Assembly: GCA_918797485.1 (NCBI GenBank)
Contig: CAKKNE010000002.1
Location: 5,456,001-5,520,000 of the forward strand
Length of the DNA stretch: 64,000 bases
Reading direction: 5' to 3'
From: Pelagomonas calceolata
Lineage: Eukaryota
The translations under genes were made by a program, and so were the position numbers. Below are positions 262-53,957 of the stretch, piece after piece. Under the pieces are notes generated by a model. It saw only the letters and a list, made by a program, of their open reading frames with translations, had not been told where the DNA came from and did not search any database. Position 1 is the first letter of the stretch. The number at the start of each line of letters is the position of its first letter.

Positions 262-285
262 GCTAGTGTCTTACAGCACGCTAGC
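262..285. promoter_or_regulatory. CTAG-flanked upstream element, copy 1
   Basis: GCTAGTGTCTTACAGCACGCTAGC upstream of the nitrilase gene. Confidence 0.7.
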
Positions 286-355
286 ACGTCGACGCGTTGC
301 GCAGATTTTGGGCCGTTTCGGCCATACCGGTGCAAGTCTAAGGCGCTCGGCGACA

Positions 356-399
356 GCATTGACGCATGCGAGGAGCCGCATTGACGCATGCGAGGAGCC
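356..399. repeat. Perfect 22-bp tandem duplication spanning the nitrilase ATG
   Basis: GCATTGACGCATGCGAGGAGCC x2. Confidence 0.9.
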
Positions 400-1356
400 G
401 TGCGACGCCTCACGCGGGTGGCAGCTCTGCATCGCGCCCTCACACGATCGACAGCCCTGCAGCACGCTGCACGACGCGCATCGATGGCGGCTGCAGCCGG
501 CAAAGCGCTCCCGCGCGTGGCAGTGGGCCAACTCAACAGCACCGGCGACCACGCGGCGAACCTGGCGCAAGCAGAAAAGCTCTGCGCGGCCGCGGCCGCG
601 GCGGGCGCCAATCTATTGTGCCTGCCCGAGGCGTTCTCCTTCATCGGCGCGAGCCCGCAAGAAACCATATCCCAGGCCGAAGCGCTGGATGGCCCGCGCC
701 TCGAACAATATAGAACGCTCGCGCGGCGCCACGGCCTCTGGCTGAGCTTGGGCGGGTTCCACGAGGCCGGCGCGCCTGGTAATCGCGTCCACAACACGCA
801 CGTCGTCGTCGACGCGGCGGGCGCCACCGTCGCGGAGTACCGCAAGATCCACTTGTTCGACGTCGACGTGCCCGGCGGCGCAACACTCTTGGAGTCTAAA
901 AGTACGACGCCCGGGAAAGCAGAGGCCGTCGTCGTCGACGCGCGCGACCAGTTGGGCTTCACGTTCGGGCTGACGACGTGCTACGACGTGCGCTTCCCCG
1001 AGCTCTACGTGGCGCTGGCGCGGCGCGGGTGCGACGCGATCCTCGTGCCGTCGGCGTTTACCGTGCCGACGGGCGAGGCGCACTGGCACCTACTACTCCG
1101 CGCGAGGGCGGTGGAGTCGCAATCCTACATTTTGGCAGCGGCCCAATCAGGCGCGCATAATGAAAAGAGGCGGTCGTACGGCCACGCGCTAGCCGTGGAC
1201 CCGTGGGGCGTCGTGGTGGCGGACGCCGGCGACGCCGCGCCATCTCTCGTCACGGTGGACCTCGACCTGGAGAAGGTGAGGTCAATTAGAGAGAAGATGC
1301 CGATCCAGGCCCACCGGCGGCGCGACGTCGTGGAGTTGCTATTGGACGATGGATAA
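388..1356 (+). CDS. Nitrilase-family amidase (Nit1/deaminated glutathione amidase-like)
   Basis: Catalytic E-K-C motifs LPEAF, YRKIHLFD, TTCYDVRFPE; SYGHALAVDPWG. Arg/Ala-rich N-terminus resembles a transit peptide; alternative start at 484. Confidence 0.9.
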   Translation: MRGAVRRLTRVAALHRALTRSTALQHAARRASMAAAAGKALPRVAVGQLNSTGDHAANLAQAEKLCAAAAAAGANLLCLPEAFSFIGASPQETISQAEALDGPRLEQYRTLARRHGLWLSLGGFHEAGAPGNRVHNTHVVVDAAGATVAEYRKIHLFDVDVPGGATLLESKSTTPGKAEAVVVDARDQLGFTFGLTTCYDVRFPELYVALARRGCDAILVPSAFTVPTGEAHWHLLLRARAVESQSYILAAAQSGAHNEKRRSYGHALAVDPWGVVVADAGDAAPSLVTVDLDLEKVRSIREKMPIQAHRRRDVVELLLDDG

Positions 1357-1592
1357 GTTATTCGCTAGAGACCCCCTTCTTCTTCCCCACCTTCTTGAGG
1401 TGGTGCACGGCGCGCTCGGCCCGGGCGGCCGTGGGGTCGCGGCGGCCCCGTCCCGGCTTCCGCTTCGGCGGCGGCGGCGGCGCGTCCTGTGTGGGATCGA
1501 CACCGTCGCGAAACGCTCTCATGAAGACGCCATCGCCGCGACCACATCGAGCCACGTTCTTTTTCACGCCGCGTCAGGACCTTCACGCGTAA

Positions 1593-1763
1593 ATCGGTAA
1601 GGGCCAGACGTGCTACATCTGCACGCAGGCCCTCCACTGGAGGACGAAGGAAGGCCTCGTGCGCATGTGTGCGTGCCGCGGGACGGCGGGCTTCGCGCAT
1701 GTGTCGTGTCTCGCGGAGCAGGCGAAGATTTTGTTCGCGGAGGCCGAGGAGAATAATTTGGGG
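1593..1763 (+). pseudogene. Truncated RING-CH (C4HC3-like) gene fragment
   Basis: Translates as KGQTCYICTQALHWRTKEGLVRMCACRGTAGFAHVSCLAEQAKILFAEAEENNLG. In-frame TAA at 1590, no start codon before the Cys motif, and the frame runs into the 3' end of the antisense gene. Confidence 0.65.
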
Positions 1764-1845
1764 GCCTCAGCGCCCGCGAGGCGGGGATTCCCTACGCGAT
1801 TAAACCGGTCTCATAGCTACTCTATTAGGCCACCGCCCAGGGAAA

Positions 1846-3948: not shown

Positions 3949-4503
3949 GATTGCGGTTGATTACAGCCTGTTTGCTGCAATGACTGTGATTTGAGATCTG
4001 CGCTTCAGCGACACCTCGTTGCGTAAAAAATGAGGTGAGCGCGCTCGACGGTGTAGCAGTGATGCTGCTGCAGCGCAAGCCTCTTGTTGCTGGCCGACGA
4101 TAGAGATATCCGCTAGATCGCACGCTTGCTGTCCTGCAAATGAATCGGGTTTCAGCGTCATCAATTCAACTCCCGGCCGGGATCGATCCGTGCGTGGTCG
4201 GCAGGACGCGTTAATGCCCAGTCCGATTTGTCCGATAAAAACCCGTGGCGCTTTCACGCAGTGAATTGGGCAGTGGCAGCTAGCTGGCGGCGCAAGCACG
4301 CAGCCAAGCCGAGCCACGTTGTCGCTGTGGCACAAATTAATCGATGCTGCAATCCCAGTTAGCAAGAACGCCGTTACTGCAGCTGTCAGGCTGTGCAGTG
4401 CCTGCAGCCCTGACAGCCAGGTGCCGCAGCGATGCAAAACGTGACGCGTAGACACTGTGCTCATAGCTGCCAGCCTCTGCTGTGCAGCTCTCGTGTCGCA
4501 GCA

Positions 4504-6922: not shown

Positions 6923-6947
6923 GCTAGCGTCCTGTAAAGACACTAGC
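6923..6947. promoter_or_regulatory. CTAG-flanked upstream element, copy 2
   Basis: GCTAGCGTCCTGTAAAGACACTAGC upstream of ctpA. Confidence 0.7.
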
Positions 6948-7309
6948 AAGGCGAGATCTCTTGTGACCGAATTATCTTACTACGACGGGGCTGGGGGATG
7001 ATTGTAGTAGTGACATGACACGTGGGCGGACGGCTATCGCCGCGTTATTGTTGGAACGGGAATGCACGGCGCTATATACTGCCGCGACCGTGCTTGTAGT
7101 ACCGTACTAGTATGCCTGTGGGTGTACCGGCGACGTTCGGAGACGACAGCAATGACCGATACGCGATTCGAACGCGTAACCTTCAGGACTGGAATCTGAC
7201 GCGCTACCGTTGCGCCAATCGGTCGAAGGGTCAACCCAGGACGCCGCCGCGGTACGTCTCGAGGACGCCCTTGGGCAGGAAGTAGTGGTCGGAACGAGAA
7301 CGCGCGGCA

Positions 7310-7926: not shown

Positions 7927-8313
7927 CGGTGGCGTTTTATCTTCTTGCGCGTCCGCTTAATTACAATTCTCAGTGGGCCTGGACTGTCCTGAAATTTTTT
8001 TACGTCCGTGTTTTTATTCGGAGCGAGAGGACGAGCTCCGAGGGTCGTCAAGACCACAATCCTGATCGTCTTTCGTCGGCCAGGTCGCGCGTTCGCGCTT
8101 GCCGCGTAAGTCCCGACAGCTTTATGTTTGCCGAGCCTAAGCATAGTAACATACTAGCTTTTGGTCCTCCAGCTTTATAGGGCCACAGTGATGCGTGTAA
8201 GGCATTAAAATCGCTGTTGTTAAGGCATTAGAATCAGACACGATCGCTACGACCGCAGCCAGCAGCTCACGTCCTCTCGAGGCGTTGGTGAGCCGTGCCA
8301 CCGAGTGGACTCC

Positions 8314-9240
8314 ATGGCGTCCGTGCTGCGGCGCGCGCGGAGCACCGTGCGGATGAATGCGCGTCGAGCCCAAAGCACGGTCCGCATGAATAACTGGGCC
8401 CAGTTTTATTGGCTCCAGTCGCGCGGCTCGAAGGCGGGCGCGTTCGGCCCGGCGCTGCTCGACCAAAATCTACAGGAATGGGGCGGCCCCGTATCACTGA
8501 TAGAGAAATCCAAAAATCACACGCTCGCGACGGCGCGCCTCCCGCCCTGGTGCGCGCGAAGGGACGGGAGACCGCCGCTCGGCGCGCTCCTCGCGTTGAT
8601 AGATCAGGTGTCGACGTTCTGTGGGCAGGCGGAATTTGATGGCAGGGGAAGGCCGGGCGTGAGTTTGTTTCTGTCGGGCGAGGTTGTGGACGAGGCGCCT
8701 TCCTTGGAATCGGGCTGTGGGATTGAAATCTCGACGAGACTCCTCAAAGGAGGCCGGACGCTCGCGTGGCTCGCCTGCGAGGTGTATGCTGATGGGGAGC
8801 TCGTGGCGCGCGCGCGCCACGCGAAGTTTCTGAAAATTGACCCGTTGCACGATTTGCTGGTGCACTCGCCTCTACATAATGCGGCGCTTCCTATACTTTC
8901 GAGGTACTACGCAAGTTTGGAACCGCACCCGTACGTCGGCGACGATACGTGCTTGGACGCTATCTTCAAACCGCGCCGTATCCAGGAAAATGCCTTCGAG
9001 GTGGATATTACAAATGACCACTGCAACGGGCTTGGGGGGCTGCACGGCGGGGCGGCCTGTATTCTGGCGGAGCACGCCGCGGGTGATGATAAGCCCCTGG
9101 CGGCGATGCACGTGTCGCTGATGCGCGGGTTGAGAGCTGGCGCCGTCGCTCGAGTTTCTCAAGAAGCGGGACGCGTTTCGATCGTGGACGGCGCGACCGG
9201 CGCGGCCTGCTACGAGGCGACGGTCTCGCCGGCGAGCTGA
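8314..9240 (+). CDS. Double hotdog-fold thioesterase (PaaI/ACOT13-like)
   Basis: PLGALLALIDQVST and CNGLGGLHGGAAC hotdog motifs. Confidence 0.8.
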   Translation: MASVLRRARSTVRMNARRAQSTVRMNNWAQFYWLQSRGSKAGAFGPALLDQNLQEWGGPVSLIEKSKNHTLATARLPPWCARRDGRPPLGALLALIDQVSTFCGQAEFDGRGRPGVSLFLSGEVVDEAPSLESGCGIEISTRLLKGGRTLAWLACEVYADGELVARARHAKFLKIDPLHDLLVHSPLHNAALPILSRYYASLEPHPYVGDDTCLDAIFKPRRIQENAFEVDITNDHCNGLGGLHGGAACILAEHAAGDDKPLAAMHVSLMRGLRAGAVARVSQEAGRVSIVDGATGAACYEATVSPAS

Positions 9241-9352
9241 CGTCGCGTCGATGGCGTGAACTCGGCCTTAGTTGTTTAATTTGGTAGACTTGTGCTCGAG
9301 GCTATAAAACCCACCGGACGGGACCCCGTGGCGCGCTTCAGGGCTCCGCGCG

Positions 9353-9375
9353 GCTAGCGGCCTGTAAGACACTAG
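9353..9375. promoter_or_regulatory. CTAG-flanked upstream element, copy 3
   Basis: GCTAGCGGCCTGTAAGACACTAG upstream of the AP2-HSF gene. Confidence 0.7.
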
Positions 9376-9547: not shown

Positions 9548-12500
9548 ATGAATCCGCAGCAGGGCGAGCAGCAGGGCAGCGAGCCCCCCCTGCAGATCCC
9601 TCCCGTGCGCCAGGGCTACGGCCGGCGGCCCGCGCACCGCTCGCCGCCGCCGCCCGTGCGCAAGCGCGCCGCGGCCTACATGGCGCCGGCGCGGGCGGCC
9701 CCCCGCGTGCGCCAGGACTCGCTCACCACGCTGCCGCCGCCGGCCGCGGCCGCGCCAGCGCCCGCAAAGGACGCCTGGGTCCGCTACGTGCACGTGAGCG
9801 GCGACGCGTACTGGCACAACGCCAGTACAGGCGAGTCGCGCTGGACGGCGCCCGAGGAGGCCGCGGCGCCGGCGCCGGCCGCGCCTGAGCCCGAGCCGGA
9901 GCCGCCGCGGTCGCCGAACAACAACCGCGTCGCGCCGAAGGTCGTCCCGGTGGCCCCGCCGACGCTGGCGCCGGCGCCGAGCGTCGCCGAGATCCGGGCC
10001 GCGTACCGGCGCGAGCAGGCGGCGCGGCGGCCGACCAAGCCCGTCGTGCCGCCGGCGCCGCCGTCGCCGGTGGCCTGGCCGGCGCCGTCGCCGCCGCCGA
10101 CGGCCGTGACGGCGTCGCCGCCGTCGCCCCCTTCATTAACCGCGGACCCGCCCACCGGCGCGCGCCTGTGTGGAGATCAAATTTCGGGCGCCCCACGCTG
10201 TCCCCGTGACCCCGTCGGCTCGATGGCGTGGAGGTTCACTGGTTGATTTCCAACACAGGCGCCACCTACCGGGCTTCTAGGTTCGCGGGCTGCTGCTGGG
10301 ACGCGCGCATCCGAAAGTGGCGCGCGAACATCCAAGTCAAGGGCTACCGCATCCCCCTCGGCGACTTCGACGACGAAGCCGACGCCGCGCGGGCCTACGA
10401 CGCGGCGCGGACGAAGTGGAAGGCGCTCATGAAGAGCGTCAAGGTGCCCCTCAACTTTCCCAATTCTGGCATAGACGAAAAGACGCTCGCCGCGCTGCCG
10501 CCGCTGCCCGCCTCATTACGATCGGAACTACCGCCGCCGCCGCGCCGCCAAGTCCCAAACGTCGTGTTGGCGGCGCGGCCGCCGCCGCGGCCGTCCCCGG
10601 AGAAGGGGGCCTTCCCCCGGGAGTTGTTCGCTCTAGTCGCCGATGATGTGGATGCGGCCCTGTCCAACAACTTAGTCGCGTGGTCGAGAGATGGGCAAAG
10701 GGTCGTGTTCTTGGAGCCCCAGGCCTTCGCCGAGAAGGTCTGCCCGCGCGTCTGGAACCACAACAAGTGGGCCTCGCTCACGAAGCAGCTGAACATCTAT
10801 GGGTTTCGGGCGTGCGGCGACGCGCGCAATGCAACGGAGCCGGCGTCGTACGAGCATGAATACTTCAAGAAGGGCCGTGCTGATTTATTGTCGAAGGTAA
10901 AGCGCCCGTCGCAAGACAAGCCCGCAGCAAAAAACCGGGGCAAGCGGCCCTTTTATGGGAATCAGTTCACGCGCGAGGTCGACAATACAGCAGTGTTGCC
11001 GGAGCTCGGTGCTCCGTTGGCTGATGCGCCGCACGAGGCCATCACGGAAAGCGTGTTTAGTGATAAGCCGGCGAGACTGGGCGGCACGCACCCGCCCCGT
11101 TCTGAGGACGATGACCCATCGTCCTTCAAGGCGTCGCGAGCCATAGGAGATGCCGCATGCGCGGCCGCGTTTCTGAAGCGAGGCTCTCGAGTGAAGTCGG
11201 CGGTCTCAGAGATCGCCGCCGAGCTAATTAGTGAAGATTGTAGTAGAAGGGAAGCCACTGGAAGGGTGCTGAGGTACTACTACGCCTCTTTTAAAGCCTC
11301 GGATAAGTATCCGGCGGCGAAGGCGGCCTCTCGCGACGAGTTCGAGGAGGAAGATTCGTCTTCAGGACGGGGCATGCGTTTACGGAGGCGTCGTGAACGG
11401 TCGGAGTCGCCGGAAGTAGCTCCTACGAGGGAGAAGCGGATTGATCCCGTCAACGAATTGCGGAGGGCGCTCAAGAACTGCCGGAGCATGCGCGAGTGTT
11501 TGGATCGATTAGATACGCGGACGTTGCGGGCCGTGCGCAACGCGGCGACGCATTTACTAGATGCTCGTTTGGATGACGCCCTGGCGAAGCCCGAGCCGCC
11601 TCCGAGAAAGCGCGCGCGCCCGCCTCCCGAGCCTAGAAGGCGTGCCGTGCAGCGCTACGAGCCGGAGACGCCGGAGCAGGCTTCTCGCGCTGCTTTCGAA
11701 GCTTTGCGGAGCAAGCTGCGAGATCGCGGCCAGGCGGGCCGCGACGTCCTCGCGGGCTGGACGGCGACGCGGGAGCGGAGCATGCGCCAGGACGGCACGT
11801 CGAACGGGTTCTTATATCAGTTCACGGATCCCGATGGAGAGGCTTTTATTTCATTGTCGGCCGCGGCGCGCGGCGCTTTACGACGATTGTCGAAGTCGGA
11901 CTCCGAGTCCGAGGAGGAGGAGGAGGAACCGCCCCAGAAGCATCGGTTACTAGGCGCGGAGTTCGACTACCACGTCGCTGGTTTAGGATGGTGCCGCGGC
12001 CGCGTGGCCAAGGTCGCGCGGGGCGGTCTACTGGAGATCCACTACAAGGACCTGCCGTACAACGCCGGCCGCCCCCAGGCCGCGCAGCGGCACCTCGCCG
12101 CGCGCGAGGTCGACGCCGCCGTGTCCAGCAGCAAGCCCAAGGGCGCGTCCTACTACGTCGCGCCGCAGCGCACGTTCGCGACCGGTAGAAGGGGCAGCCC
12201 GGGGCCCAAGCTCGAGAAGCCCGAGATCTATAAGTGCGGCGGCTGCGATCGAGGGTTCACGACGCTGAGCGGGCGGTCGAACCACTACCGCTACTGCGAG
12301 GCCGGAAGGGCCTTCGCGGCCGCCGAGGCGGCCGCGCGCGCGCTCGCGGCGTCGGACGACGACGTCGCCTCGTCGGCGTCGCCGACGCCGACGCCGCCGT
12401 CCTCGGACTCGCCACGCGCCGTTGGTACAACAAAGCGGTTCCCCTGCCCGGCCGGCTGCGACCGCTTCTTCACGCACGCGCCGGCGGCCGTCCAGCACGG

Positions 12501-12723
12501 GAAGACGTGCGCCGCGAAGCAGAAGGCCGCGCGGGAGAGGGCCTTCGCCCACGAGGCGTCTCCACCTCCCCCCTTCACGTCGCCGCCCGAGACGCCGCTC
12601 GCCGACGCCGAGGCCCGCGTCCTCTCGCTGGCCGAGGGCCCGCCCGACTCGCCCCGTTCTTCCGAACCGGTTCCTCCTCCGCTTCGCCAGCCGAGTTGGT
12701 GGCCTACTAATAGTGGTTCTTGA
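9548..12723 (+). CDS. Multidomain regulator WW-AP2-HSF-(MBD-like)-(Tudor-like)-2xC2HC Zn finger; exons 9548-10157 and 10259-12723
   Basis: WW: AWVRYVHVSGDAYWHNASTGESRWTAP. AP2: KWRANIQVKGYRIPLGDFDDEADAARAYDAA. HSF: AWSRDG..KWASLTKQLNIYGFR. A GC-AG intron joins the two ORFs in phase 1. Confidence 0.82.
10158..10258 (+). mobile_element. Introner-like GC-AG intron with terminal inverted repeats
   Basis: CTGTGTGGAGATCAA (from 10166) is inverted relative to TTGATTTCCAACACAG (to 10258). The 8 bp GCGCGCGC before the left TIR starts exactly at the GC donor and resembles GCGCCACC after the AG. Confidence 0.75.
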
Positions 12724-13717: not shown

Positions 13718-13741
13718 GCTAGCGACCTGTAACACACTAGC
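13718..13741. promoter_or_regulatory. CTAG-flanked upstream element, copy 4
   Basis: GCTAGCGACCTGTAACACACTAGC in a divergent promoter. Confidence 0.7.
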
Positions 13742-15567: not shown

Positions 15568-15590
15568 GCTAGTGTCTTACTGCCGCTAGC
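15568..15590. promoter_or_regulatory. CTAG-flanked upstream element, copy 5
   Basis: GCTAGTGTCTTACTGCCGCTAGC. Confidence 0.7.
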
Positions 15591-15675
15591 CGCGCTGGAT
15601 TTCCTAGCGCGGGAGCCCACTCGTCCTAGAGGTGTGTGTTTGGATATTTTAAACACAATATAAATTAAGTACAGT

Positions 15676-16597: not shown

Positions 16598-16620
16598 GCT
16601 AGTGTGTTACGGCCGCTAGC
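16598..16620. promoter_or_regulatory. CTAG-flanked upstream element, copy 6
   Basis: GCTAGTGTGTTACGGCCGCTAGC. Confidence 0.7.
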
Positions 16621-16772: not shown

Positions 16773-17980
16773 TTACACCTCCGAGTCCGTATGGAGCTCG
16801 TTCCACTCCTTCCGGTACTCCGCCATGGCCGACAGCGACTCCTCGGCCGGGCGGTACGTCGCGGACCGGACCGAGACGGCGACGGCGACGTCCTTGGCCG
16901 TCACGAGCGAGTACGCGTTGTCGAAGACCAGGAGCAGAGTCGTATGGTCTTTGGCGGTCCAGGCGCCGCCGAACTTGGAGCCCGCGGCGAACGTGGCCGA
17001 CGGCAGCAGCCCGACCTCGACGGCGCCGCCGCTCGCCATGCGCCGCTCGCTCACCGAGAACCGCACGTCATGCGCGCGGACGCAGAACTCCCAGCGTAGG
17101 ACGTCGTTCCCCTGCACGACGTAGGGCAGCTTGACGACGGCGCGCGGCCCCACGCGCACGCGGTCGCCGGCGACGGAGTTCCAGTCCCCAGCGTCGCCGA
17201 GCCGCGTCGCGAGCGAGTTCACGACGCGCGGAATCACTCGCTTATCGATGACGTCCGAGGCGCCGCGGAGCACCGAGTCGGACGCGAGGGCCGCGCCCGA
17301 CAGCGCGGCGAGCGCGGCCACGTCGGGACCTGCGTGGTTTTTTGGTCGTTGTCTTTGTTGACCTTCGCGGCGAACGATTGGTCTCTCGCACCACGTACTG
17401 ATGGTAGAGCCTCCTCTGACGCGTTGCTCTCCACGCCATCGACGAGACGCCGTCAAGAGTGTTTGACCACCAGCACGCCATCGCCGCGAAATGGAATCGG
17501 ACGCCGACCGGGACCCGCCACCGCGCCGGCCAGGATCGTCGCGCCCGCCGCGGCCACGCCCCGGAGCTGCGCCCCCGCGATGCCGTCACGTTTTTCCGCG
17601 GGTGCTTCGGGCGGCTTTCGGCGGCGCGGCGGTCGCGGCGGCGGCGGGCGCGCCTCGGCGGCGGCGCGGCGCCGCCGCCAGTCGTCGCGGAAGGCGACGG
17701 CCTTCTGGAGCGCGTCCTCGCGGTGCCGCGCGGCCGCGTCGTGCGACGCTTGTACGTTGTGCAGGAGGGCGCGCGACGGCTGTGACGGTGGCTCGTCTGG
17801 CTGCTTTTCTGCGGGCGACGGCTCGTCGACGCGCTGTTCTCGTGCTCGGTCCTGATCTGCCTCCTCGAGTGCTTGCGCTATGGTTCGGTCTAGGAGCGCT
17901 TCCGTGCCGGCTAACGCGGCTCCGAGGAGTTCGACTTCGTCTTCGACCGCGGCATCGGCAGCGTTCGTGAGGGCCGCCAT
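16773..17980 (-). CDS. GOLD-domain protein; exons 17980-17515 and 17329-16773
   Basis: LRWEFCVRAHDVRFSV..LLLVFDNAYS GOLD motif; GT-AG intron at 17514-17330 joins the ORFs (AVAG|PDVAAL). Confidence 0.75.
17330..17514 (-). mobile_element. Introner-like intron (185 bp) with a duplicated junction sequence
   Basis: The intron begins GTCCCGGT and exon 2 begins GTCCCGAC. Internal TTCGCGGCGA..TCGCCGCGAA inverted repeat; two CGATGGCGTG motifs. Confidence 0.65.
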
Positions 17981-20824: not shown

Positions 20825-20847
20825 GCTAGAGTGTTACAGGCCGCTAG
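20825..20847. promoter_or_regulatory. CTAG-flanked upstream element, copy 7
   Basis: GCTAGAGTGTTACAGGCCGCTAG in a divergent promoter. Confidence 0.7.
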
Positions 20848-25228: not shown

Positions 25229-25251
25229 GCTAGCGGCATGTAACACACTAG
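25229..25251. promoter_or_regulatory. CTAG-flanked upstream element, copy 8
   Basis: GCTAGCGGCATGTAACACACTAG in a divergent promoter. Confidence 0.7.
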
Positions 25252-27843: not shown

Positions 27844-27868
27844 GCTAACGTCCTGTAAAGACACTAGC
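27844..27868. promoter_or_regulatory. CTAG-flanked upstream element, copy 9
   Basis: GCTAACGTCCTGTAAAGACACTAGC in a divergent promoter. Confidence 0.7.
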
Positions 27869-31198: not shown

Positions 31199-31220
31199 CT
31201 AGCGGCCTTAAAGACACTAG
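31199..31220. promoter_or_regulatory. CTAG-flanked upstream element, copy 10
   Basis: CTAGCGGCCTTAAAGACACTAG in a divergent promoter. Confidence 0.7.
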
Positions 31221-32556: not shown

Positions 32557-32588
32557 GCTAGTGTCTCACCTGAGCACAGCCGCTAAGC
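32557..32588. promoter_or_regulatory. CTAG-flanked upstream element, copy 11 (long-spacer variant)
   Basis: GCTAGTGTCTCACCTGAGCACAGCCGCTAAGC upstream of TenA. Confidence 0.5.
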
Positions 32589-35242: not shown

Positions 35243-35265
35243 GCTAGCGCATGTAAGACACTAGC
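35243..35265. promoter_or_regulatory. CTAG-flanked upstream element, copy 12
   Basis: GCTAGCGCATGTAAGACACTAGC in a divergent promoter. Confidence 0.7.
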
Positions 35266-36266: not shown

Positions 36267-37232
36267 TTACGTAGGAAGCCGCCGCTGTGCTGCGAGTTGG
36301 CAGTAGCGCGAGGCGACCGAGTCCTTGAAGTGCCGCCGCGCGAGCGCCTGCGCGAGGTCCGGGGACTCGCGGAGGACCGCGGCGCGGGCCGCACTACATG
36401 TGCGCAGTGCGGCCGGGTCCGGCGCGGCGGCGCCGTACTCGGCGACCTGGCGCTCGTGCCGTGTGACGGCGGCCGCGTAGAGCGCCGCGTCGCGGGGCGC
36501 GCGCGCCTCGACGGCCCGCCGGAGCCACGAAGGGATGGCTCGGCCGCGAGGGGTCTCGCGCGCGCGCGCCGTCGGCAGGAGGCACGCGGCCTCAGGCGGC
36601 CAGCCGAGCGCCGCCGCGAAGAGCGCGAGGGACACGTTCATGGCTTCCGTGAGACCCACGACAAAGGGCGCGAGCGCGTCTTCCGGTGGCCCTGTGCCGA
36701 GGACGTCCTCGTACTCGCGGAGCCCTGTGCCCTTCGTCTGGTCGGTGAAGCGCGCGTCGTAGGCGTCCAGCAGTTCCGCGAATGCCGCGGGCGTCGAGGC
36801 CGCCGGGTCCTGGAGCAGGGCACGCGCCTTCGCGAGCAGCGTCGGGTTCCTAACGAAGGGCGGGCGGAAGAAGTAGGAGATGAGCGAGAGGGTGCGGTCG
36901 GCGGGATCGCGCAGCATCACAAAAAGCTTGGAACAGTTCGCGGCTCGAAACGGCGCCGACCCGTGGAGCGCGTACGCGCGGGCCGTGCCGTGCCGCCAGG
37001 GCGGGAACGCGCCCTTGAGGCGCGCGTCGGCGCGGCCGCAGCGCTCCGGGAAGACGCCTCGCCGCTGCGCGCATTCGAAGAAGCCCGCGGCCGTCGTCGA
37101 GCCCACCTTGTGCAGCTTGAGGAAGATCGGCGGTGCGTCGCCGCGCGCCGCGCCGGCGGCCGGCCGCTCGCTGAGGCAGACACCGACTGCGAAAGCTATC
37201 AGTGCCTGGCGGCTCGATGCGCTGCCTTGCAT
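36267..37232 (-). CDS. Golgi-type carbohydrate sulfotransferase (Gal-3-O-sulfotransferase-like)
   Basis: 5'-PSB motif FLKLHKVGSTT; 3'-PB motif LRDPADRTLS; DAALY. Confidence 0.8.
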   Translation of the reverse strand: MQGSASSRQALIAFAVGVCLSERPAAGAARGDAPPIFLKLHKVGSTTAAGFFECAQRRGVFPERCGRADARLKGAFPPWRHGTARAYALHGSAPFRAANCSKLFVMLRDPADRTLSLISYFFRPPFVRNPTLLAKARALLQDPAASTPAAFAELLDAYDARFTDQTKGTGLREYEDVLGTGPPEDALAPFVVGLTEAMNVSLALFAAALGWPPEAACLLPTARARETPRGRAIPSWLRRAVEARAPRDAALYAAAVTRHERQVAEYGAAAPDPAALRTCSAARAAVLRESPDLAQALARRHFKDSVASRYCQLAAQRRLPT

Positions 37233-37575
37233 GTTGATGCAATCGATTTGAAAAGGCGACAGGGCAGCCCTCCCTCACTGTGGTCGTTGCGGATCCATGT
37301 GCATGGCGTCGTGGGCAGCACACACTTTGGACCCTGGAATCTGAAAATTAATAGCAACCATGCTAGCGTGCGGGCTGCCGCTTTCAGCGAAGCTGTGACG
37401 AGTCGGGACGCCTGCGAGTCGCTGAACCAGCGATCCATGTCACCACAAAACCCGTCCTAACCTACTAGTCGGCGACGCTCACCAAAACAAGCAGCTAAAA
37501 TCGCCGCGCGCAAGCCCACAGCTGCGCCGCAACAGCCAAACACTCGTCCGCAACAGCCAAACAGTCGTCGCAACC

Positions 37576-37971
37576 ATGTCCGCCACCCTCGAAGAGCTCG
37601 AGAAGCAGGCCGCCGAGAAGACCAAGAGTCTCGAGACGGAAACGGTCCACCGCATCCGCATCACGCTCACGTCGCGCGACGTCAAAGCGCTGGAGACGGT
37701 CTGCGCCAACCTCAAAAGGGGCGCCGTCGACAAGAAGTTGAAAGTGAGCGGCCCTGTGCGCATGCCGACGAAAAAGCTGCGCATCACGACGCGCAAGTCG
37801 CCCTGCGGCGAGGGTACCAACTCGTGGGACCGCTTCGAGATGCGCATCCACAAGCGCGTCATCGACCTCCACTCGCCGTCCGAGGTCGTGAAGCAGATCA
37901 CGTCTATCCCCATCGAGTCCGGCGTCGAGGTCGAGGTGACGATCGCGGACGCCGAGGAGACGACGAAGTAA
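37576..37971 (+). CDS. RPS20: 40S ribosomal protein S20 (uS10)
   Basis: [46 protein letters not shown]. Confidence 0.98.
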
Positions 37972-39057: not shown

Positions 39058-39080
39058 GCTAGCGGCCTGTAACACACTAG
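39058..39080. promoter_or_regulatory. CTAG-flanked upstream element, copy 13
   Basis: GCTAGCGGCCTGTAACACACTAG in a divergent promoter. Confidence 0.7.
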
Positions 39081-40135: not shown

Positions 40136-40232
40136 CGGAACCGGCACCGCCACGCTATCGAGCAGGCGTCGCGTCGATGGCGTGGAGGTCGACGCGACGA
40201 TCCAGGGCAAATTAATATGTAGTAGTATGTGC

Positions 40233-41528: not shown

Positions 41529-41695
41529 CTTCGTCTCGGGGAGGCTGTGCTTTTTACCAGGCGCTCGAGCTCGGCTCAAATTGCTCCGGGGGCTAGTTGC
41601 CGCTAGAAGCAATGGCTGGTGTGCCAGCCTCGGTCGTACGGCGCTTGGGGGGTGCTTAATCCAGCGCAAACTTTGCAAAAGCCGGCGCCGAACGC

Positions 41696-41719
41696 GCTAG
41701 CGTCCAGTAAGACACTAGC
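41696..41719. promoter_or_regulatory. CTAG-flanked upstream element, copy 14
   Basis: GCTAGCGTCCAGTAAGACACTAGC in a divergent promoter. Confidence 0.7.
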
Positions 41720-42594: not shown

Positions 42595-43962
42595 TTAATA
42601 CAGGTGCCCATCTTTCAGGGCCCCCAGACTACTCTCTCCCCCGGGCCCAATCGAGTACGTTCGAAAGTAGAACGGACTCCCGGCCGAGGGTCTCCTCGCC
42701 CCTCTCTCTCTCCAATTGGCCGCGTCCCAAAGGCCCCACACGAGGCGGTCCAGAAGCAGCGGCGGCGGCAGCGGCGCGGCGTCGGGATCGTCGGCCGGCA
42801 CCCCGCATAAGGTTTTGAGCCCGTGGCCGTCGTCCACCTCGACCAGCGAAGCACACGCGGTTTGCGCCTTGGCGAGCAGCGCCCTCGAGTCTGCAATATC
42901 CACAACGGTGTCGCGCTTCCCGTGGACGACGACATACGGCCCCCCCTCCGGATGACCATGGTCTCCAGACGTTGATGCATCCCAGGCGGGCGGCGCTGTG
43001 CCGCCTGGGTAAAATCGTCGCTCGGGGAATCTTCTGCGCAGGTGTAGAAGAGGAAGACGAATATGTGGGTCACTTCCTCGCCGAAAAGGAAATTCGCGCG
43101 ATGGGTCTCGCAAGATCCGGTGCATAATGTTCCGGTGCGCGGGGCACAGGAGCACCGCCGGACCAATCCAGAAGCCTCGACTAATCAGATCCAGGCACAG
43201 CGCCCCGCCGAAGCTCGAGCCCACGATTACGTCGGGCTTGAAGGCGGCGAGCGCCTCGCGCTGAAGCTCGAGGCACTCCTCGTAGTCGTGCACGAAGCTC
43301 GTGGCCGTCGCGCTGTTCGGCATGGCAACGCAGAGGCTGTGCTCGAACCGCTCCGCCAAATAACGGGCCTTGAGGCCGTGCGGGCCGCTCTCGAGGCCGT
43401 GCACGAAGAGGACGCGGGGCGGACGCGCGGCCTTGCGCGCGGCCTCCTCGCGCCTGACTGCCTCGCGCGCGCGACTGGCTGCCTCGCGCGCGCGCCTGGC
43501 TGCCTCGCGCGCCGGCCTGGCTGCCTCGCGCGCCGCGGCCTCGCGCGCCGCGGCCTCGACCTTGGCCTTGGCCTCCTCGAGGGCCGCTGCCGACGGCGCG
43601 CCGGGCGCCTCGAAGTCGCGGAAAGCTCCAATATCAGACGTATTTTCGACGACTACCATCATCGGCGCGCCGACCGGAACCGCCGTGCCCGCGGGCTGCA
43701 AATGCTTGGCGACGACGCCGTCGTCCCGCGCTTCGAAGTCCACGGTCGCCTTGTCCGTCTCGACCTCCGCTATCGAATCGCCCGCGCCGAAGGCTTCTCC
43801 TTCCTCGACGTTCCACTTCACGAGGGTCCCCAACTCCATCGTTGGGCTCAGCGCGGGCAGACCGACGACGTTGTGCGACGGGTAGGAGAGCGGGCGCCGC
43901 GCGAGGCCCGCGGGCGCTGCCCGGGGCAGCGCAGCGCGCGCGCCGCGCAGCAGGCGCAGCAT
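42595..43962 (-). CDS. Mitochondrial lipoyl domain fused to an alpha/beta hydrolase
   Basis: Transit peptide; LPALSPTM..VETDKATVDFE (lipoyl-Lys); HGLES, GSSFGG, HGKRDTVV, DDGHGL. Confidence 0.8.
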   Translation of the reverse strand: MLRLLRGARAALPRAAPAGLARRPLSYPSHNVVGLPALSPTMELGTLVKWNVEEGEAFGAGDSIAEVETDKATVDFEARDDGVVAKHLQPAGTAVPVGAPMMVVVENTSDIGAFRDFEAPGAPSAAALEEAKAKVEAAAREAAAREAARPAREAARRAREAASRAREAVRREEAARKAARPPRVLFVHGLESGPHGLKARYLAERFEHSLCVAMPNSATATSFVHDYEECLELQREALAAFKPDVIVGSSFGGALCLDLISRGFWIGPAVLLCPAHRNIMHRILRDPSREFPFRRGSDPHIRLPLLHLRRRFPERRFYPGGTAPPAWDASTSGDHGHPEGGPYVVVHGKRDTVVDIADSRALLAKAQTACASLVEVDDGHGLKTLCGVPADDPDAAPLPPPLLLDRLVWGLWDAANWRERGARRPSAGSPFYFRTYSIGPGGESSLGALKDGHLY

Positions 43963-46255: not shown

Positions 46256-46290
46256 GCTAGCGTGCTCGGAGAGCGCATAGACACACTAGC
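46256..46290. promoter_or_regulatory. CTAG-flanked upstream element, copy 15 (long-spacer variant)
   Basis: GCTAGCGTGCTCGGAGAGCGCATAGACACACTAGC in a divergent promoter. Confidence 0.5.
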
Positions 46291-48016: not shown

Positions 48017-48073
48017 CACCGACGCGACGTCTCCTCGACGGCGTGGCGGCGCACGGCTTGTACCAGAGCTGAC
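48002..48073. repeat. 16-bp direct repeat spanning a stop codon
   Basis: TTGTACCAGAGCTGAC at 48002 and 48058. Confidence 0.85.
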
Positions 48074-48133: not shown

Positions 48134-48712
48134 CTAGGCCTCGCCCCAGTCGATGTCGACGCGCGTCACGCGCGGCTGCTCGGCCAATAAGGTGCGCGTC
48201 ACGTTCGCCTTCGACGGCGCCTCGCCCTCGGGCGCCTCGTTGTTCACGTAGTAGCCGATACGTAAAAATTCTTGGCCCCGGTACGCGCAGCAGACGAGCA
48301 CCACCGTCACGCCTAAGAGGTCCGCGGCCGGGATTTTGGCCGGGTCCGGCGCGTCCGCCGAGAGCACAAATCTAGAAGTGCCCGCCGGCACGGGGCCCAC
48401 CTCGACGTCCGCCAGCGTTTGGTCTCTGGCGCTGTCGTCCGCTGAACCAACATAAACGACCGACCATTCCAAATCGCCCGGTAAAGCTCTCGTACTTTCA
48501 AACGTAATTTCAAAATCCAGGTCATCCCCAAAGTTCGCCGGGTTCTTGAGCGGGGCGACGTTCGCCACGGACACGGGAGAGGGCTGCGTCTGCTTCACCT
48601 GCGGCGGCGGCTCGTGCGAGGCCGCCGGCGCGTCGTCGGCGAGGAAGTCGTTGTCGTCCTCCATGGGCTCGTCCTCGTCGGAGCGCGGCTCGTCCGCCGC
48701 GAAGTCGGCCAT
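48134..48712 (-). CDS. ASF1: Histone chaperone ASF1
   Basis: NPANF..FEITFE..DLEWSVVYVGSA..DQTL..VGPVP..EFLRIGYYVNNE..PRVT. Confidence 0.95.
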   Translation of the reverse strand: MADFAADEPRSDEDEPMEDDNDFLADDAPAASHEPPPQVKQTQPSPVSVANVAPLKNPANFGDDLDFEITFESTRALPGDLEWSVVYVGSADDSARDQTLADVEVGPVPAGTSRFVLSADAPDPAKIPAADLLGVTVVLVCCAYRGQEFLRIGYYVNNEAPEGEAPSKANVTRTLLAEQPRVTRVDIDWGEA

Positions 48713-48906
48713 CTTCTCCGTGGCGCGCGGCTCTTGTTCGGCTGTGGCGCGCAGGTCGTCCCTTGGCGCGCTGACGTGCGGCGGGCGGGTGCGGCGCAGC
48801 CGAGCGCTCACGCGTGACAGCGCGGGCAAAAAGCAAGTGCCACACGGCCACCGGGGTGATCCGTTTCGCACTCCGTTGCGCGAGCACTCAAATCGGCCGC
48901 GGGCTT

Positions 48907-48930
48907 GCTAGTATCTCTACAGTCCGCTAG
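48907..48930. promoter_or_regulatory. CTAG-flanked upstream element, copy 16
   Basis: GCTAGTATCTCTACAGTCCGCTAG in a divergent promoter. Confidence 0.65.
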
Positions 48931-49107
48931 GTTGAATCGAATTAACTTTTTCGAGCACAGCGGCAAATCTGTGGCGCTGCACACGCTCCCGAGTGGATTT
49001 CGTACGTTATTGATGCTCGAAACCACAGCGCAGTCCAACTTGCCGTGAGTTTTTGGCCATAATTAAGCTTAGCAGGTCCTGCTCGCGGCAGCGAACCCGT
49101 CGCAGCG

Positions 49108-49962: not shown

Positions 49963-49973
49963 GTGTATTTGTA

Positions 49974-50864: not shown

Positions 50865-51099
50865 GGTCCTTTTTCGTTTGCGCTGCCGACGATGTGGGTC
50901 CGGCGCGGGTGCCCTTGCGCTGTGCGGCTCCGATGCCCGAGTGCACGAGCAGCCCTACGCCTGAGACAGCCCACCAACACCAGCACTGGAGCAAGACAAG
51001 CTGCGCCTCAATAGCGATATTTCAAACCTCAACCAGGCACAAATTTGCCTCCCAAAGAAGGCGTGGCCGTGCGTTGCAACAAAAACACTCTGGCTCCGC

Positions 51100-51120
51100 C
51101 TAGTGTGTCACCAACGCTAG
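51100..51120. promoter_or_regulatory. CTAG-flanked upstream element, copy 17
   Basis: CTAGTGTGTCACCAACGCTAG in a divergent promoter. Confidence 0.55.
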
Positions 51121-51374
51121 TTGCGTTTTTTGGCAATTTGCCCCGCTGCACGCGTAGCGTTGGACTCAGTGCGTCAAAATTGCCGTGCGGGTGCCTAAGT
51201 TTCACACCTGAGCCGCAGCAATAGAAACGCGCCAAAACGCAGTGCCAGCATTGCTGCCAGTGTGCAGCCTGCTGCAAGCACCCACGCCGCGTCGCAGCAA
51301 GCGCAGTATTGGCGCGTGATCAGTGGAGCAGCGTTGCAGCAAGCACAGCAATTGGCACGTGATCACTGCAAGCA

Positions 51375-52187
51375 ATGGCGGCACTCGACGAGACGGACGC
51401 CGCCGAGGACAATGAGGACATCTTCGACCCGGGCCTCTTCCTCAACGAGGACTACGTCGAGCACGCCTACGAGCTAGGAGACGGCGCCCAGCAAACGTGC
51501 CTCTGCCTCGAGGGCGCGTCGACGGACCACGATTTGACGGGTCAGGTCGTCTGGCCGGTGTCGGTCGCGCTCGCGCGTTTTGTGGCCGCGCGTCTGGATT
51601 CATTGAAGGGCCGGCGCGTCGTCGAGGTCGGCGCGGGCACGGCGCTCGCGGGCCTCGCGGCGGCCCGCGCCGCTTGCGCGAGTGTTGTGCTGACGGACGG
51701 CTCCGACGTGATCATGCAATTGCTCGAGCGCGCGCTGGCGTCATCAAACGTGACCGCAACTCTAAAAGCGCCGACGTCCGCGCGCAAGCTGCTCTGGGGC
51801 GACCGCGCGTCCTTCGACGGCATTGGAACTTGTGATGTCGTCCTGGGCGCGGACGTCGTGTGCTGGCCGCGCCTCGTGGAGCCTTTACTACAAACCGTGC
51901 GCGCGTTATTGCGGGGGTCGGACGACGGCGTGTTTTACTGCGGTTTTGTTAGTAGGAGCCAATTGACGGAGCGGCTCTTCTTCGAGAAAAGCGAGCGTTT
52001 TGGTTTTGTGATACGCGAGCACACTCTAGAATCCTTCCTGCCGGACCCCGTGCCCGAGGCCTGTCGCTCGAATATGGAGTTGAGGGTACTCGAGCTCCGG
52101 CTCCGCGGCGACGCGCGCGGCGCGCCGGACGTCTTCGCTTCGGACGACCCGGCGAATGCTGAAGCCACGGGCGACATCGCGTGTTGA
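51375..52187 (+). CDS. Methyltransf_16 family protein methyltransferase
   Basis: TDHDLTGQVVWP, EVGAGT, LTDG, LLWG, GADV. Confidence 0.88.
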   Translation: MAALDETDAAEDNEDIFDPGLFLNEDYVEHAYELGDGAQQTCLCLEGASTDHDLTGQVVWPVSVALARFVAARLDSLKGRRVVEVGAGTALAGLAAARAACASVVLTDGSDVIMQLLERALASSNVTATLKAPTSARKLLWGDRASFDGIGTCDVVLGADVVCWPRLVEPLLQTVRALLRGSDDGVFYCGFVSRSQLTERLFFEKSERFGFVIREHTLESFLPDPVPEACRSNMELRVLELRLRGDARGAPDVFASDDPANAEATGDIAC

Positions 52188-52260
52188 GACTTGTGGCGCC
52201 AGACCCACGCCATCGACGCGGCACCTTTGTGCTGAGAGAACATTGTAATATTTAATTGTG

Positions 52261-53010
52261 CTACCGCCGTCGGCCGCGCCCTCGCCCACGCCCCCGCGGC
52301 GCGCGGCCGCGGCCTCGAGGCGCCCACCGCGTCGCCGGCGGCGGCGGCTCGGCCATGGATACGACGGGCGGCGGCAGTTCATCCGCGACCCGCCGGAAGC
52401 GCACGAGGTCGACGGCGACGTCCCGTGAATTGTCCGCATGGAACGCGTACGTTTTTGGCAAATCAAAACGCAGCTCGGCGACGACGTCCGCGGCCGCGCC
52501 CCACTCGTGCGCTCGTTTCAGGAGGAAGGCGCGCGTCGACGTCTTGTGCAGCGAGTAGACCACGTCACATAATGAGAGAGCGGCCCTTACAAAAGCAGCG
52601 TCGATTCCCTTTTTCCGCGTGCCGAAGGGTGGGTTCATGACGCACGTGTCGAAGGCGTTGCGCAGCGGGAGTTGCGCGTTATCATCAATGCGACACCTCA
52701 CAAAATCGACGACGTGGTCGACGTCGCATTCTGCGATGTTAGTTCTCGCCAAAGCAAGGGCGTCCTCGTCGCAATCCACACCGACCACAATGCTAGCACC
52801 CGCCAGCGCGCAGGCGCAGCTCAATATACCCGTGCCGCAGCCCAGATCTAAGACACGCTTGTCCAAGACGTCGTCCTGTATGTGTGTGATGATGGCGGCG
52901 CCGAGTTCGGCCGACGTCGCGTACTGTTCTAGTTCGAACTTTATTTGATCGGTGTCGAACGGTTTCAGCTGTTGGAGTGCTGCTTCTAACGAGAAGTCCT
53001 TCTTTCCCAT
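52261..53010 (-). CDS. METTL5: METTL5-like rRNA N6-adenine methyltransferase
   Basis: LEQYAT, DLGCGTG, MNPPFGT, VYSLHKTSTR, FDLPKTYAFH; RG-rich tail. Confidence 0.92.
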   Translation of the reverse strand: MGKKDFSLEAALQQLKPFDTDQIKFELEQYATSAELGAAIITHIQDDVLDKRVLDLGCGTGILSCACALAGASIVVGVDCDEDALALARTNIAECDVDHVVDFVRCRIDDNAQLPLRNAFDTCVMNPPFGTRKKGIDAAFVRAALSLCDVVYSLHKTSTRAFLLKRAHEWGAAADVVAELRFDLPKTYAFHADNSRDVAVDLVRFRRVADELPPPVVSMAEPPPPATRWAPRGRGRAPRGRGRGRGRRR

Positions 53011-53190
53011 CTCTTGTGCTGCGCTGCTGCACTGAGGCTGCAGTGCTGCTGCTCAGGCTAGGTATTCACTGCAGCTGGTCATCCACTGTCTGCACGGATG
53101 CATCCAGCAGCGCAGCCGTCTGTGCGCGTAGCGTTCCAGTTCACAGCAAGACGTCCCGTACCCTGGCTTTTGCCGGCGTGCAAACATGGT

Positions 53191-53214
53191 GCTAGCGGCC
53201 TGTAAGACACTAGC
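53191..53214. promoter_or_regulatory. CTAG-flanked upstream element, copy 18 (consensus)
   Basis: GCTAGCGGCCTGTAAGACACTAGC upstream of METTL5. Confidence 0.7.
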
Positions 53215-53936
53215 CCGCATTTCAAACGGGACCCCTCTCCCTTTGTTTTCTTTGTCTAAGCCTCGGAAGTCACCCTCGACGCCTCTCGATACGGCTGCTT
53301 GATCCTCGATAACTACTCGCTTCGAGTTTGCAAAGGCGCATCGGGAACCGGGACGAACTCGACGGTCGATTATAGTTGGCAGGTTCAAAATCTCGTGGCA
53401 CCGCCCTGGCCTGAATACCTTTACTTTTCCCACCGACGCCGACGACTAACAAAGACACAGCGATGAGATAATCAAAGGCCTAGAGGCCATCGGCACGGGA
53501 AATAACACCGATGCCGCGCGTGCTCCTCCTACTGACGTTCCTGAACGCCGGCGTTGTCGCCGCCAATCCGACGGCGGGCCGCTGGAATGTTTCGGCGTTC
53601 CGCCGCCGCGCCGTCGGCCGCCAGCGTTACGCGTGGCCGATTTTGAAGATCAGACCTCCCAAGGCCTGGAGTTAACCGCACCGTCGTCCGCCTATGATTC
53701 CGGGAAAAGAAGGGTGGCGTCGTGCTTCGGCGGCCTCGCGGCCTACTCCCCGGACATCTTCCGGACATGCGAGTATGCGCCTCCATCGAACGACCCCGAG
53801 GGCTGAGACTTGGGCCGGCACGTAGGCTAGCCGACCGGTTGGTCTCGCGCGAGAGGGCCACGCGACGGTCAGGCAGGAGCCAGCACAGGCCGCTTTGGCC
53901 TCCACGCGCCGTAAAACTGCCGCAAAAAATGGCAGA

Positions 53937-53957
53937 GCTAGCGCCCTAAGACACTAG
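53937..53957. promoter_or_regulatory. CTAG-flanked upstream element, copy 19
   Basis: GCTAGCGCCCTAAGACACTAG upstream of the 1499-aa gene. Confidence 0.65.

What the first reader, a model, noticed from the sequence alone, without database searches (positions are those of the whole stretch)
262..53957. A ~24-bp CTAG...CTAG element marks most promoters: candidate general (bidirectional) promoter or chromatin-organising element
Seen in the sequence: consensus GCTAGCGNCCTGTAA(G/C)ACACTAG(C) occurs 19 times (262, 6923, 9353, 13718, 15568, 16598, 20825, 25229, 27844, 31199, 32557, 35243, 39058, 41696, 46256, 48907, 51100, 53191, 53937), with a degenerate copy near 8136-8158. Every copy is intergenic and about 80-290 bp upstream of a start codon. 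It is usually a single copy shared by a divergent gene pair, occurs in either orientation, and I found no full copy in a CDS or between convergent genes. The flanking genes are functionally unrelated, so this is not a pathway regulon. The two CTAG half-sites are usually 13-15 bp apart. Inference: a long bipartite site for an abundant general factor that organises the nucleosome-free region and bidirectional initiation. I do not recognise it as TATA, Inr or another known stramenopile motif. An alternative is a domesticated transposon end or footprint.
Basis: partly seen in the sequence, partly recalled or inferred. Interest (0 to 1): 0.9.

Follow-up and report, generated by a model that had tools for sequence, protein, structure and literature searches.

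The report
Master promoter anchor in a picoalga
A 22-base DNA word sits once, in either direction, just upstream of about two thirds of the predicted genes in this stretch of a tiny marine alga (likely Pelagomonas calceolata) and recurs in wild relatives, and it likely marks where an abundant protein holds promoters open and lines up nucleosomes for transcription on both sides.

Summary
In detail: 19 copies at the stated places, none in a CDS (chance 0.1 or less per 64 kb); the 20th 'degenerate' copy is not supported. 30 of 45 predicted genes have a copy upstream, in either orientation. The window is pelagophyte, likely Pelagomonas calceolata. In marine metagenome loci, 0 of 98 sites fall in predicted CDS and distances to ATG match on both sides (medians 177 and 170 bp). 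Three RNA 5' pile-ups lie 33-53 bp outside copies. Four gene pairs at 74-87% identity keep the site in place, one of them flipped. T-tracts at 0-30 bp and a CG dip at 130-160 bp follow the motif, not the ATG, on both sides. No TSD, Helitron end, hairpin, Rfam hit or RNA pile-up on the motif. But 10 of 143 copies share a longer left extension, so some copies spread by copying. Best reading (0.6): the site of a general regulatory factor that anchors an open promoter and phased nucleosomes, probably seeded from a repeat and kept by selection. No protein or chromatin data were tested. Five literal pieces of the motif occur in 0 papers of the library.

The parts
263..284 (-). motif copy, upstream of nitrilase-family gene (+)
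   Evidence: (35.7 bits)
6924..6946 (+). motif copy, upstream of S41 peptidase (-); tRNA gene 7153-7224 on the other side
9335..9353 (+). longer left extension shared with unrelated loci (L006, L012, L028, L053, L062, L080, L109)
   Evidence: score 36; shuffle max 26
9354..9375 (+). motif copy, tandem gap, gene start on the ACACTAG side
13719..13740 (+). motif copy, divergent pair (methyltransferase / riboflavin kinase)
15569..15589 (-). motif copy, tandem gap
15590..15618 (-). longer left extension (same family as at 9335)
   Evidence: score 41
16599..16619 (-). motif copy, tandem gap by prediction
20826..20847 (-). motif copy, divergent pair
25230..25251 (+). motif copy, divergent pair (unknown / RRM protein)
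27845..27867 (+). motif copy (left half variant), divergent pair
31199..31220 (+). motif copy, divergent pair
32558..32586 (-). motif copy with long (21 bp) spacer, tandem gap, upstream of TenA gene
   Evidence: (21.7 bits)
35244..35264 (+). motif copy, divergent pair
39059..39080 (+). motif copy, divergent pair (phosphoesterase / mitochondrial carrier)
41655..41655 (-). RNA 5' pile-up of FYVE/Ysc84 gene, 42 bp from the motif
   Evidence: run X22, 9 of 24 molecules
41697..41718 (+). motif copy, divergent pair (FYVE-Ysc84 / V-ATPase proteolipid)
46257..46289 (+). motif copy with long (25 bp) spacer, divergent pair
   Evidence: (19.9 bits)
48908..48930 (-). motif copy, divergent pair (ASF1 / ankyrin protein)
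51100..51120 (-). motif copy, divergent pair
51173..51173 (+). RNA 5' pile-up, 53 bp from the motif
   Evidence: run X21, 6 of 14 molecules
53192..53213 (+). motif copy identical to the commonest form; upstream of a methyltransferase (-)
   Evidence: dozens of DNA contigs of run X1 carry it with unrelated flanks
53899..53905 (-). RNA 5' pile-up of a minus-strand polyA transcript with no long ORF, 33-39 bp from the motif
   Evidence: (all three RNA runs, one sample)
53938..53957 (+). motif copy between that transcript and the gene starting at 54150

Best explanation
The element occurs once per promoter, in either orientation, outside coding sequence and just upstream of RNA starts, and is likely the binding site of an abundant general regulatory factor that holds the promoter open and sets nucleosomes in register on both sides. 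Shown: position, single copy, free orientation, retention across relatives, a motif-anchored mirror register in the flanks, and longer relic copies. Inferred: (1) a protein or complex reads two half-sites (CTAGCG and TGTAA[G/C]ACACTAG) with a tolerant linker, as spacers of 12-25 bp occur; (2) with the short T-tracts next to it, it would exclude nucleosomes and act as a barrier from which remodelers space nucleosomes outward, leaving the CG dip at 130-160 bp and features about 180-190 bp apart; (3) polymerase II then starts about 35-55 bp beyond the edge, on whichever side a gene lies; (4) a site this long is unlikely to arise by point mutation thousands of times, so it was probably spread as the end of a longer repeat, whose remains survive on about 7% of copies, then trimmed and kept by selection.
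For: 0 of 19 window copies and 0 of 98 metagenome sites in predicted CDS, although 69% of the loci is coding; 84 of 98 have a gene start pointing away within 600 bp; ATG distance median 177 (n=57, min 50) on the CTAGCG side and 170 (n=59, min 56) on the other. Tandem cases in the window put the gene on either side (3 vs 3, counting 6924 and 53192). Scores split cleanly: nothing between 7.9 and 19.9 bits, so no trail of decayed relics. RNA 5' pile-ups 42, 53 and 33-39 bp outside three copies; no RNA loose-end pile on a motif among the rows shown. Four locus pairs with homologous genes at 74-87% identity carry the site at the same place; three keep orientation and differ only in the free 2-4 bases while 100-bp flanks range 52-83% (unrelated baseline 52%); in L027/L058 it lies 92 vs 93 bp from the conserved 5' block but inverted. 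About 2 pairs are expected among 121 loci if every site were shared by every sampled genome (7,260 pairs / about 3,500 sites; my arithmetic). CG frequency 0.085 (95% CI 0.078-0.092) at 130-160 bp against 0.111 and 0.125 on either side, on both flanks; the dip persists where the ATG is 200 bp or more away (depth 0.053, CI 0.031-0.073, n=63) and under 125 bp (0.024, CI 0.004-0.045, n=33), and the ATG-anchored profile has no such dip. T-runs peak at 0-30 bp. Longer extension in 10 of 143 (null 0.3%).
Against: No binding, MNase, ATAC or reporter data were tested. Only 3 RNA 5' pile-ups relate to copies, all on the CTAGCG side, two of them in one run each, from a single sample, and they are read ends, not caps; 3 other 'end' piles shown are inside genes and 24 rows were not shown. 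15 of 45 predicted genes lack it, among them highly covered RPS20. 2 of 49 fully resolved metagenome sites lie between two predicted gene ends. The loci were selected on 18 fixed bases, so conservation of those bases in pairs is forced; only the pair count and position are informative, and only 2 of 64 parts of the collection were scanned. The CG dip is not significant in the 99 flanks without a predicted start (0.014, CI -0.004 to 0.029). Long-range CG periodicity is weak and trend-confounded, and the side-to-side correlation (0.87) has a high jitter null (mean 0.67; 0 of 200 reach it). Information content (about 35 bits on 25 sites, inflated by the pattern) far exceeds the 12-13 bits needed to mark such sites, which also fits copying.
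Confidence: 0.6

Rival explanations
1. A bidirectional core-promoter element that recruits the initiation machinery directly at a fixed distance (SNAPc/PSE-like or a TFIID-independent activator like ZNF143), rather than acting mainly through nucleosomes.
For: RNA 5' pile-ups cluster 33-53 bp from the edge; TATAA is rare in the flanks; long high-information site.
Against: Orientation is free and can flip; spacer varies 12-25 bp; one third of genes lack it; the register reaches about 300 bp into coding DNA.
Confidence: 0.15
2. A structural site placed in promoters because they are open: replication origin, fork barrier, cohesin/condensin anchor or insulator, not needed for transcription.
For: One copy per gap, asymmetric sequence, free orientation, absent from some active promoters. 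Sap1 sites act as polar fork barriers as well as NDR makers (PMC5371812, passages).
Against: About one per 3.4 kb in the window is far denser than known sequence-defined origins (recalled); fixed distance to gene 5' regions on both sides.
Confidence: 0.12
3. A non-functional relic: the 3' end of a 5'-truncated non-LTR element or the end of a short DNA element that inserts into open promoters.
For: Constant right end, variable-length shared left extension in 10 of 143; AAGC units in the first 30 bp of the right flank in 71 of 143 against 32 of 143 on the left; right-flank variants that look like loop inversions between CTAGs; excess information.
Against: No TSD above noise in 1,008 tests, T follows CTAG in 2 of 143; no decayed or half-length copies in the window; one per gap; kept in place where flanks are at unrelated-level identity; 133 of 143 have no extension.
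Confidence: 0.09
4. An RNA-level or single-strand feature (hairpin, cruciform, relict spliced leader, small RNA).
For: Imperfect inverted ends around a central imperfect palindrome (sequence).
Against: Folding z-scores -0.5 to +1.0 for three copies and -0.04 to +0.6 for three extended copies; no Rfam match except one tRNA; lies upstream of RNA 5' ends and in both orientations.
Confidence: 0.03

Closest known systems
Yeast general regulatory factor sites (Reb1, Abf1, Cbf1, Rap1; PMC2897762 passages)
   Same: Promoters of unrelated genes, near T-tracts, lineage-specific repertoires; Abf1's site is bipartite (recalled).
   Different: Much longer (22 bp or more, variable spacer), present at about two thirds of genes in the window, unrelated sequence (recalled comparison, no motif database available); no chromatin data here.
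S. pombe Sap1 site and Tf1/Tf2 LTRs (PMC5371812 passages)
   Same: One factor makes most promoter NDRs and its site is also part of a mobile element; closest analogue for a site shared by promoters and repeat relics.
   Different: No factor, fork barrier or parent element identified here; the extension is under about 50 bp.
Human ZNF143/Staf SBS in bidirectional promoters (PMC3082894 abstract)
   Same: Long site shared by head-to-head genes, inherently bidirectional.
   Different: Covers only a subset of pairs in human; sequence differs (recalled); binding and reporter proof exist there, none here.
REST RE1 / CTCF long zinc-finger sites spread by transposons (recalled, not read)
   Same: Two half-sites with tolerated spacer changes, high information, copying origin, nucleosome phasing for CTCF (the last noted in PMC5728721 passages).
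   Different: Those are not general promoter marks; no C2H2 factor linked here.
Oomycete INR, FPR, DPEP core promoters (PMC3599244 passages)
   Same: Stramenopile, TATA-poor promoters with lineage-specific long motifs.
   Different: Those are oriented core elements; this one is orientation-free and upstream of RNA starts; the paper's main text holds no CTAG string.
Pelagophyte introner elements (10.1101/2021.10.25.465678 section 17)
   Same: Repeated, transposon-derived sequence in the same species.
   Different: Introners are about 210-bp introns with splice sites and TIRs (n=956); this is 22 bp, intergenic, about ten times as frequent by extrapolation.

Membership tests
General regulatory factor site (Reb1/Abf1/Sap1 type) | Enriched in promoters of functionally unrelated genes, excluded from CDS | tested here: met
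   0 of 19 and 0 of 98 in CDS; 30 of 45 genes
General regulatory factor site (Reb1/Abf1/Sap1 type) | Orientation-independent, shared by divergent genes | tested here: met
   symmetric ATG distances; flipped copy at the same place
General regulatory factor site (Reb1/Abf1/Sap1 type) | Lies a short way upstream of the transcription start | tested here: inconclusive
   3 pile-ups at 33-53 bp, RNA-seq ends of one sample, all on one side
General regulatory factor site (Reb1/Abf1/Sap1 type) | Conserved in place across related species | tested here: met
   4 pairs, loci selected on the motif
General regulatory factor site (Reb1/Abf1/Sap1 type) | Nucleosome depletion in vivo and phasing from the site | not testable with these tools
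   only a sequence proxy: motif-anchored CG dip and T-tracts
General regulatory factor site (Reb1/Abf1/Sap1 type) | Bound by an abundant, essential factor | not testable with these tools
   no factor sought or identified
Known TF motif (JASPAR/CIS-BP) | Significant match to a catalogued matrix | not testable with these tools
   no motif library on hand; literal search gave 0 papers
Oomycete INR/FPR/DPEP | Oriented element at or just after the start site | tested here: not met
Helitron 3' end | CTAG followed by T, preceded by a GC-rich hairpin | tested here: not met
   T in 2 of 143; no stable hairpin
MITE / DNA transposon insertion | Target-site duplication and terminal inverted repeats around a discrete element | tested here: not met
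   best of 1,008 TSD tests is 3 of 143 copies; CTAG itself as a fixed TSD cannot be excluded
5'-truncated non-LTR element / SINE end | Fixed 3' end with short-repeat tail, variable 5' extension, parent element | tested here: inconclusive
   extension in 10 of 143; one CAAG unit directly after in 33 and two in 4 of 143; no parent found, genome not held
Relict spliced leader | Sense to the gene and present at mRNA 5' ends | tested here: not met
Introner element | About 210-bp intron with splice sites and TIRs | tested here: not met

The most novel reading that the evidence does not exclude
The end of a mobile element was captured as the master promoter anchor of a eukaryote: one 22-27 bp site, still spread by copying and able to flip, now sets the open region, start sites and nucleosome register for most genes of one of the most abundant ocean algae.
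Probability: 0.3. Interest if true: 0.9.

Novelty: new variant of a known kind. Interest (0 to 1): 0.68.

Why it matters
Core promoters of algal stramenopiles are barely described, and the P. calceolata genome paper's main text has no hit for motif or promoter. A single long site at about two thirds of genes (roughly 9,600 copies if the window's density holds over 32.4 Mb) would give a ready minimal bidirectional promoter for engineering and a marker for gene and TSS annotation in pelagophyte MAGs. It also offers a candidate for what anchors the unusually well-positioned nucleosomes of linker-methylated marine algae (PMC5728721 and PMC9246332 passages), and a testable case of a repeat end becoming a genome-wide promoter code.

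Tried and rejected
No whole genome is held, so genome-wide counts are extrapolated. Viral contigs: 0 hits for two motif patterns and for the second repeat's end. Prokaryote genomes: 4 hits in 596 Gb, all in marine MAGs and 101-2,147 bp from a contig end, next to bacterial or archaeal genes further in; read as chimeric joins, not a prokaryotic feature. Rfam: only a tRNA. Direct and tandem repeat finders showed no larger element around the copies. Hairpin, TSD, inverted flanks and Helitron end tests were negative. A second short repeat found 25-170 bp to the right of the motif in L047, L051, L092, L096 resembles the extended form by eye, but its alignment score (22) does not beat shuffles (max 25 of 2,000), so kinship is not shown. 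Long-range CG periodicity was inconclusive. A sigma-70 scan was irrelevant and empty. A protein comparison of the right-hand genes of L027 and L058 was run in the wrong frame and gave nothing; ORF lists suggest different genes there. A base-level RNA profile across two copies was not obtained, so whether one copy fires in both directions, and whether transcripts stop at the next copy, stays open. Presence in Aureococcus or other pelagophyte genera could not be tested; of 10 locus proteins looked up, 2 tied to P. calceolata by name, 7 gave no species name among the members listed and 1 was absent. Earlier findings of this scan: nothing in three look-ups. Literature searches; none described the motif; supplements of the genome paper were not examined and could list it among ab initio repeats.


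Full report
Observation. Markov simulations give 0.1 or fewer per 64 kb. A two-block matrix finds exactly these 19 at 19.9 bits or more and nothing else above 7.9; the proposed copy at 8136 scores under 6 and is unverified. The CTAG-to-CTAG spacer is 13-15 bp in 16 copies, 12 in one, 21 and 25 in two. With a codon model trained on the window's own genes, no copy is in a CDS; 13 of 18 divergent, 4 of 7 tandem and 0 of 19 convergent gaps hold one, and 30 of 45 predicted genes have one upstream. Convergent gaps are short, so their emptiness alone is weak. Flanking genes are unrelated by Pfam.

Organism. The window is a gene-dense, 64% GC eukaryote. Its ASF1 is 71% identical to a cluster that holds Aureococcus proteins, and its proteins lie on a 6.14-Mb NCBI contig. 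Two of ten proteins from motif-bearing loci match or cluster with named Pelagomonas calceolata proteins. That species has a 32.4-Mb, 63% GC genome with 16,667 genes (10.1101/2021.10.25.465678, passages and section 17). I infer P. calceolata or a close sister. No whole genome was held.

Spread. In DNA contigs of run X1, which may be the window's own source, 36 contigs run on with other letters before 53191, and 21 and 45 behind 53213 and 53214, with flank agreement of only 0.36-0.42: many copies, unrelated flanks. A strict pattern hit 123 stretches (121 loci) in 2 of 64 parts of the metagenome collection, about 7,400 in all by the tool's estimate; one exact 22-mer makes up 34 of 127 matches. 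Loci of 3 kb or more hold 53 sites in 200.5 kb, 21 beyond the one selected per locus. Viral contigs have none; 596 Gb of prokaryote genomes have 4, all near contig ends of marine MAGs.

Position. After dropping four loci that duplicate others (L029, L058, L070, L118) and loci under 1 kb, 0 of 98 sites fall in predicted CDS (69% coding), 84 have a gene start pointing away, and 2 of 49 resolved sites lie between two gene ends. ATG distances are alike on both sides (median 177 and 170 bp, none under 50). Stranded polyA reads of one sample show 5' pile-ups 42 bp (run X22), 53 bp (X21) and 33-39 bp (all three runs) outside three copies, each on the CTAGCG side; three other piles shown are inside genes, 24 rows were hidden, and RPS20 starts at 37494 with no full copy and the highest depth. 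So the motif lies upstream of transcripts, but is not needed by every gene.

Conservation. Four locus pairs share homologous genes at 74-87% identity. Three carry the site at the same place and orientation, differing only in the free bases, with flanks from 52% (unrelated level) to 83%. In L027/L058 the site is 92 vs 93 bp from the conserved 5' block of the same gene but inverted, and the gene on the far side appears to differ. The fixed bases were forced by the search, but about 2 pairs would be expected only if all sites were shared by all sampled genomes (my arithmetic), which a neutral relic would not allow at this divergence.

Register. Outward from both edges there are T-runs at 0-30 bp, a CG rise near 105, a CG dip with GAGAGC/GCTCTC and CA/TG excess at 130-165, a peak near 285 and a dip near 335. 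The dip holds where the ATG is far (n=63) or near (n=33), is absent from the ATG-anchored profile, and is not significant in 99 flanks without a predicted start. A spacing of 180-190 bp is nucleosome scale; that reading is inference. Several marine algae have very well positioned nucleosomes with linker methylation (PMC5728721 and PMC9246332, passages; Huff and Zilberman 2014 not read, and its inclusion of Aureococcus is recalled). Longer-range periodicity was inconclusive.

Origin. There is no TSD signal, T follows the right CTAG in 2 of 143, no stable hairpin forms and Rfam has no match. But 10 of 143 copies, two in the window, share a left extension of up to about 45 bp with internal deletions, AAGC units are commoner on the right (71 vs 32 of 143), and information content (about 35 bits, inflated) is far above the 12-13 bits needed. 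Some copies were therefore made by copying a longer sequence. The parent was not found; a look-alike second repeat failed a shuffle test.

Mechanism. I favour (0.6) a general-regulatory-factor site: two half-sites with a tolerant linker bind an abundant factor, which with the T-tracts would open the promoter, phase nucleosomes outward and let polymerase II start 35-55 bp beyond the edge on either side; the site was probably seeded from a repeat and kept by selection. Rivals: direct bidirectional core element (0.15), structural site such as origin, barrier or insulator (0.12), neutral relic (0.09), RNA or hairpin feature (0.03). No step involving a protein or chromatin was tested.

Comparison. 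It works like yeast Reb1/Abf1 sites (PMC2897762, passages), Sap1 with its Tf1 link (PMC5371812, passages) and ZNF143 sites (PMC3082894, abstract), but membership rests on untested binding and chromatin features. It is not the oomycete INR/FPR/DPEP (PMC3599244, passages), a Helitron end, an introner or a spliced leader. Five literal pieces occur in 0 papers; the published genome paper's main text has 0 hits for motif, promoter, upstream or CTAG (PMC9481584, term search only); a Hi-C preprint that mentions Pelagomonas has 0 hits for motif (10.1101/2025.04.21.649811, passages); searches listed nothing on it (listings only). Supplements were not seen, and subscription papers are not in the library.

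Verdict. Real, apparently undescribed, and best filed as a new variant of a known kind: unusually long, unusually prevalent, with signs of a copied origin. Interest 0.68.

Noticed in passing
window 40137-40205 (relatives at about 9233-9258, 17420-17451, 48017-48052): A second short repeat at gene 3' ends: DNA contig depth up to about 29,000 against about 16 (roughly 1,800 copies) and many polyA reads from other loci carry it. Possibly an introner/MITE relative or a 3' UTR element.
   Followed up: partly
window about 53250-53905, minus strand: Well-covered polyA transcript (about 55x in all three RNA runs) between two motif copies with no ORF over 85 aa; candidate lncRNA or small-protein gene.
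   Followed up: partly
window 37232-37576: RPS20 divergent promoter lacks a full copy but has a lone left half at 37362 and a CTAG at 37465, 29 bp before a sharp RNA 5' pile-up at 37494.
   Followed up: partly
L047:~820-920, L051:~2160-2290, L092:~340-400, L096:~160-280: Short repeat with a constant 3' end and variable 5' ends, sometimes in tandem, always on the ACACTAG side of a motif and in the same orientation.
   Followed up: partly
L004/L026; L009/L011/L065/L116; L042/L099/L119 flanks: Three further small repeat families within 250 bp of motif copies.
   Followed up: no
L122, L123, L124, L125 (G001-G004): Prokaryotic MAG contigs whose ends carry motif copies and eukaryote-like genes; likely chimeric pelagophyte DNA in GTDB representatives.
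   Followed up: partly
window 42760-42779 and 48687-48707: Reads join these two places over a 20-base shared stretch, seen also in one DNA contig; probably a paralogue or shared short sequence elsewhere.
   Followed up: no
window 33643-35166 (-): Gene with a 5-hmdU DNA kinase helical domain (PF18723), a family known from DNA base modification (role recalled).
   Followed up: no
window 10429-12723 (+): HSF-type DNA-binding protein with a weak C2H2 hit; no link to the motif shown.
   Followed up: no
window 1599-1762 and L020:11665-11828: 164-bp stretch at 94.5% identity, part of a repeated zinc-finger-like gene fragment family.
   Followed up: no
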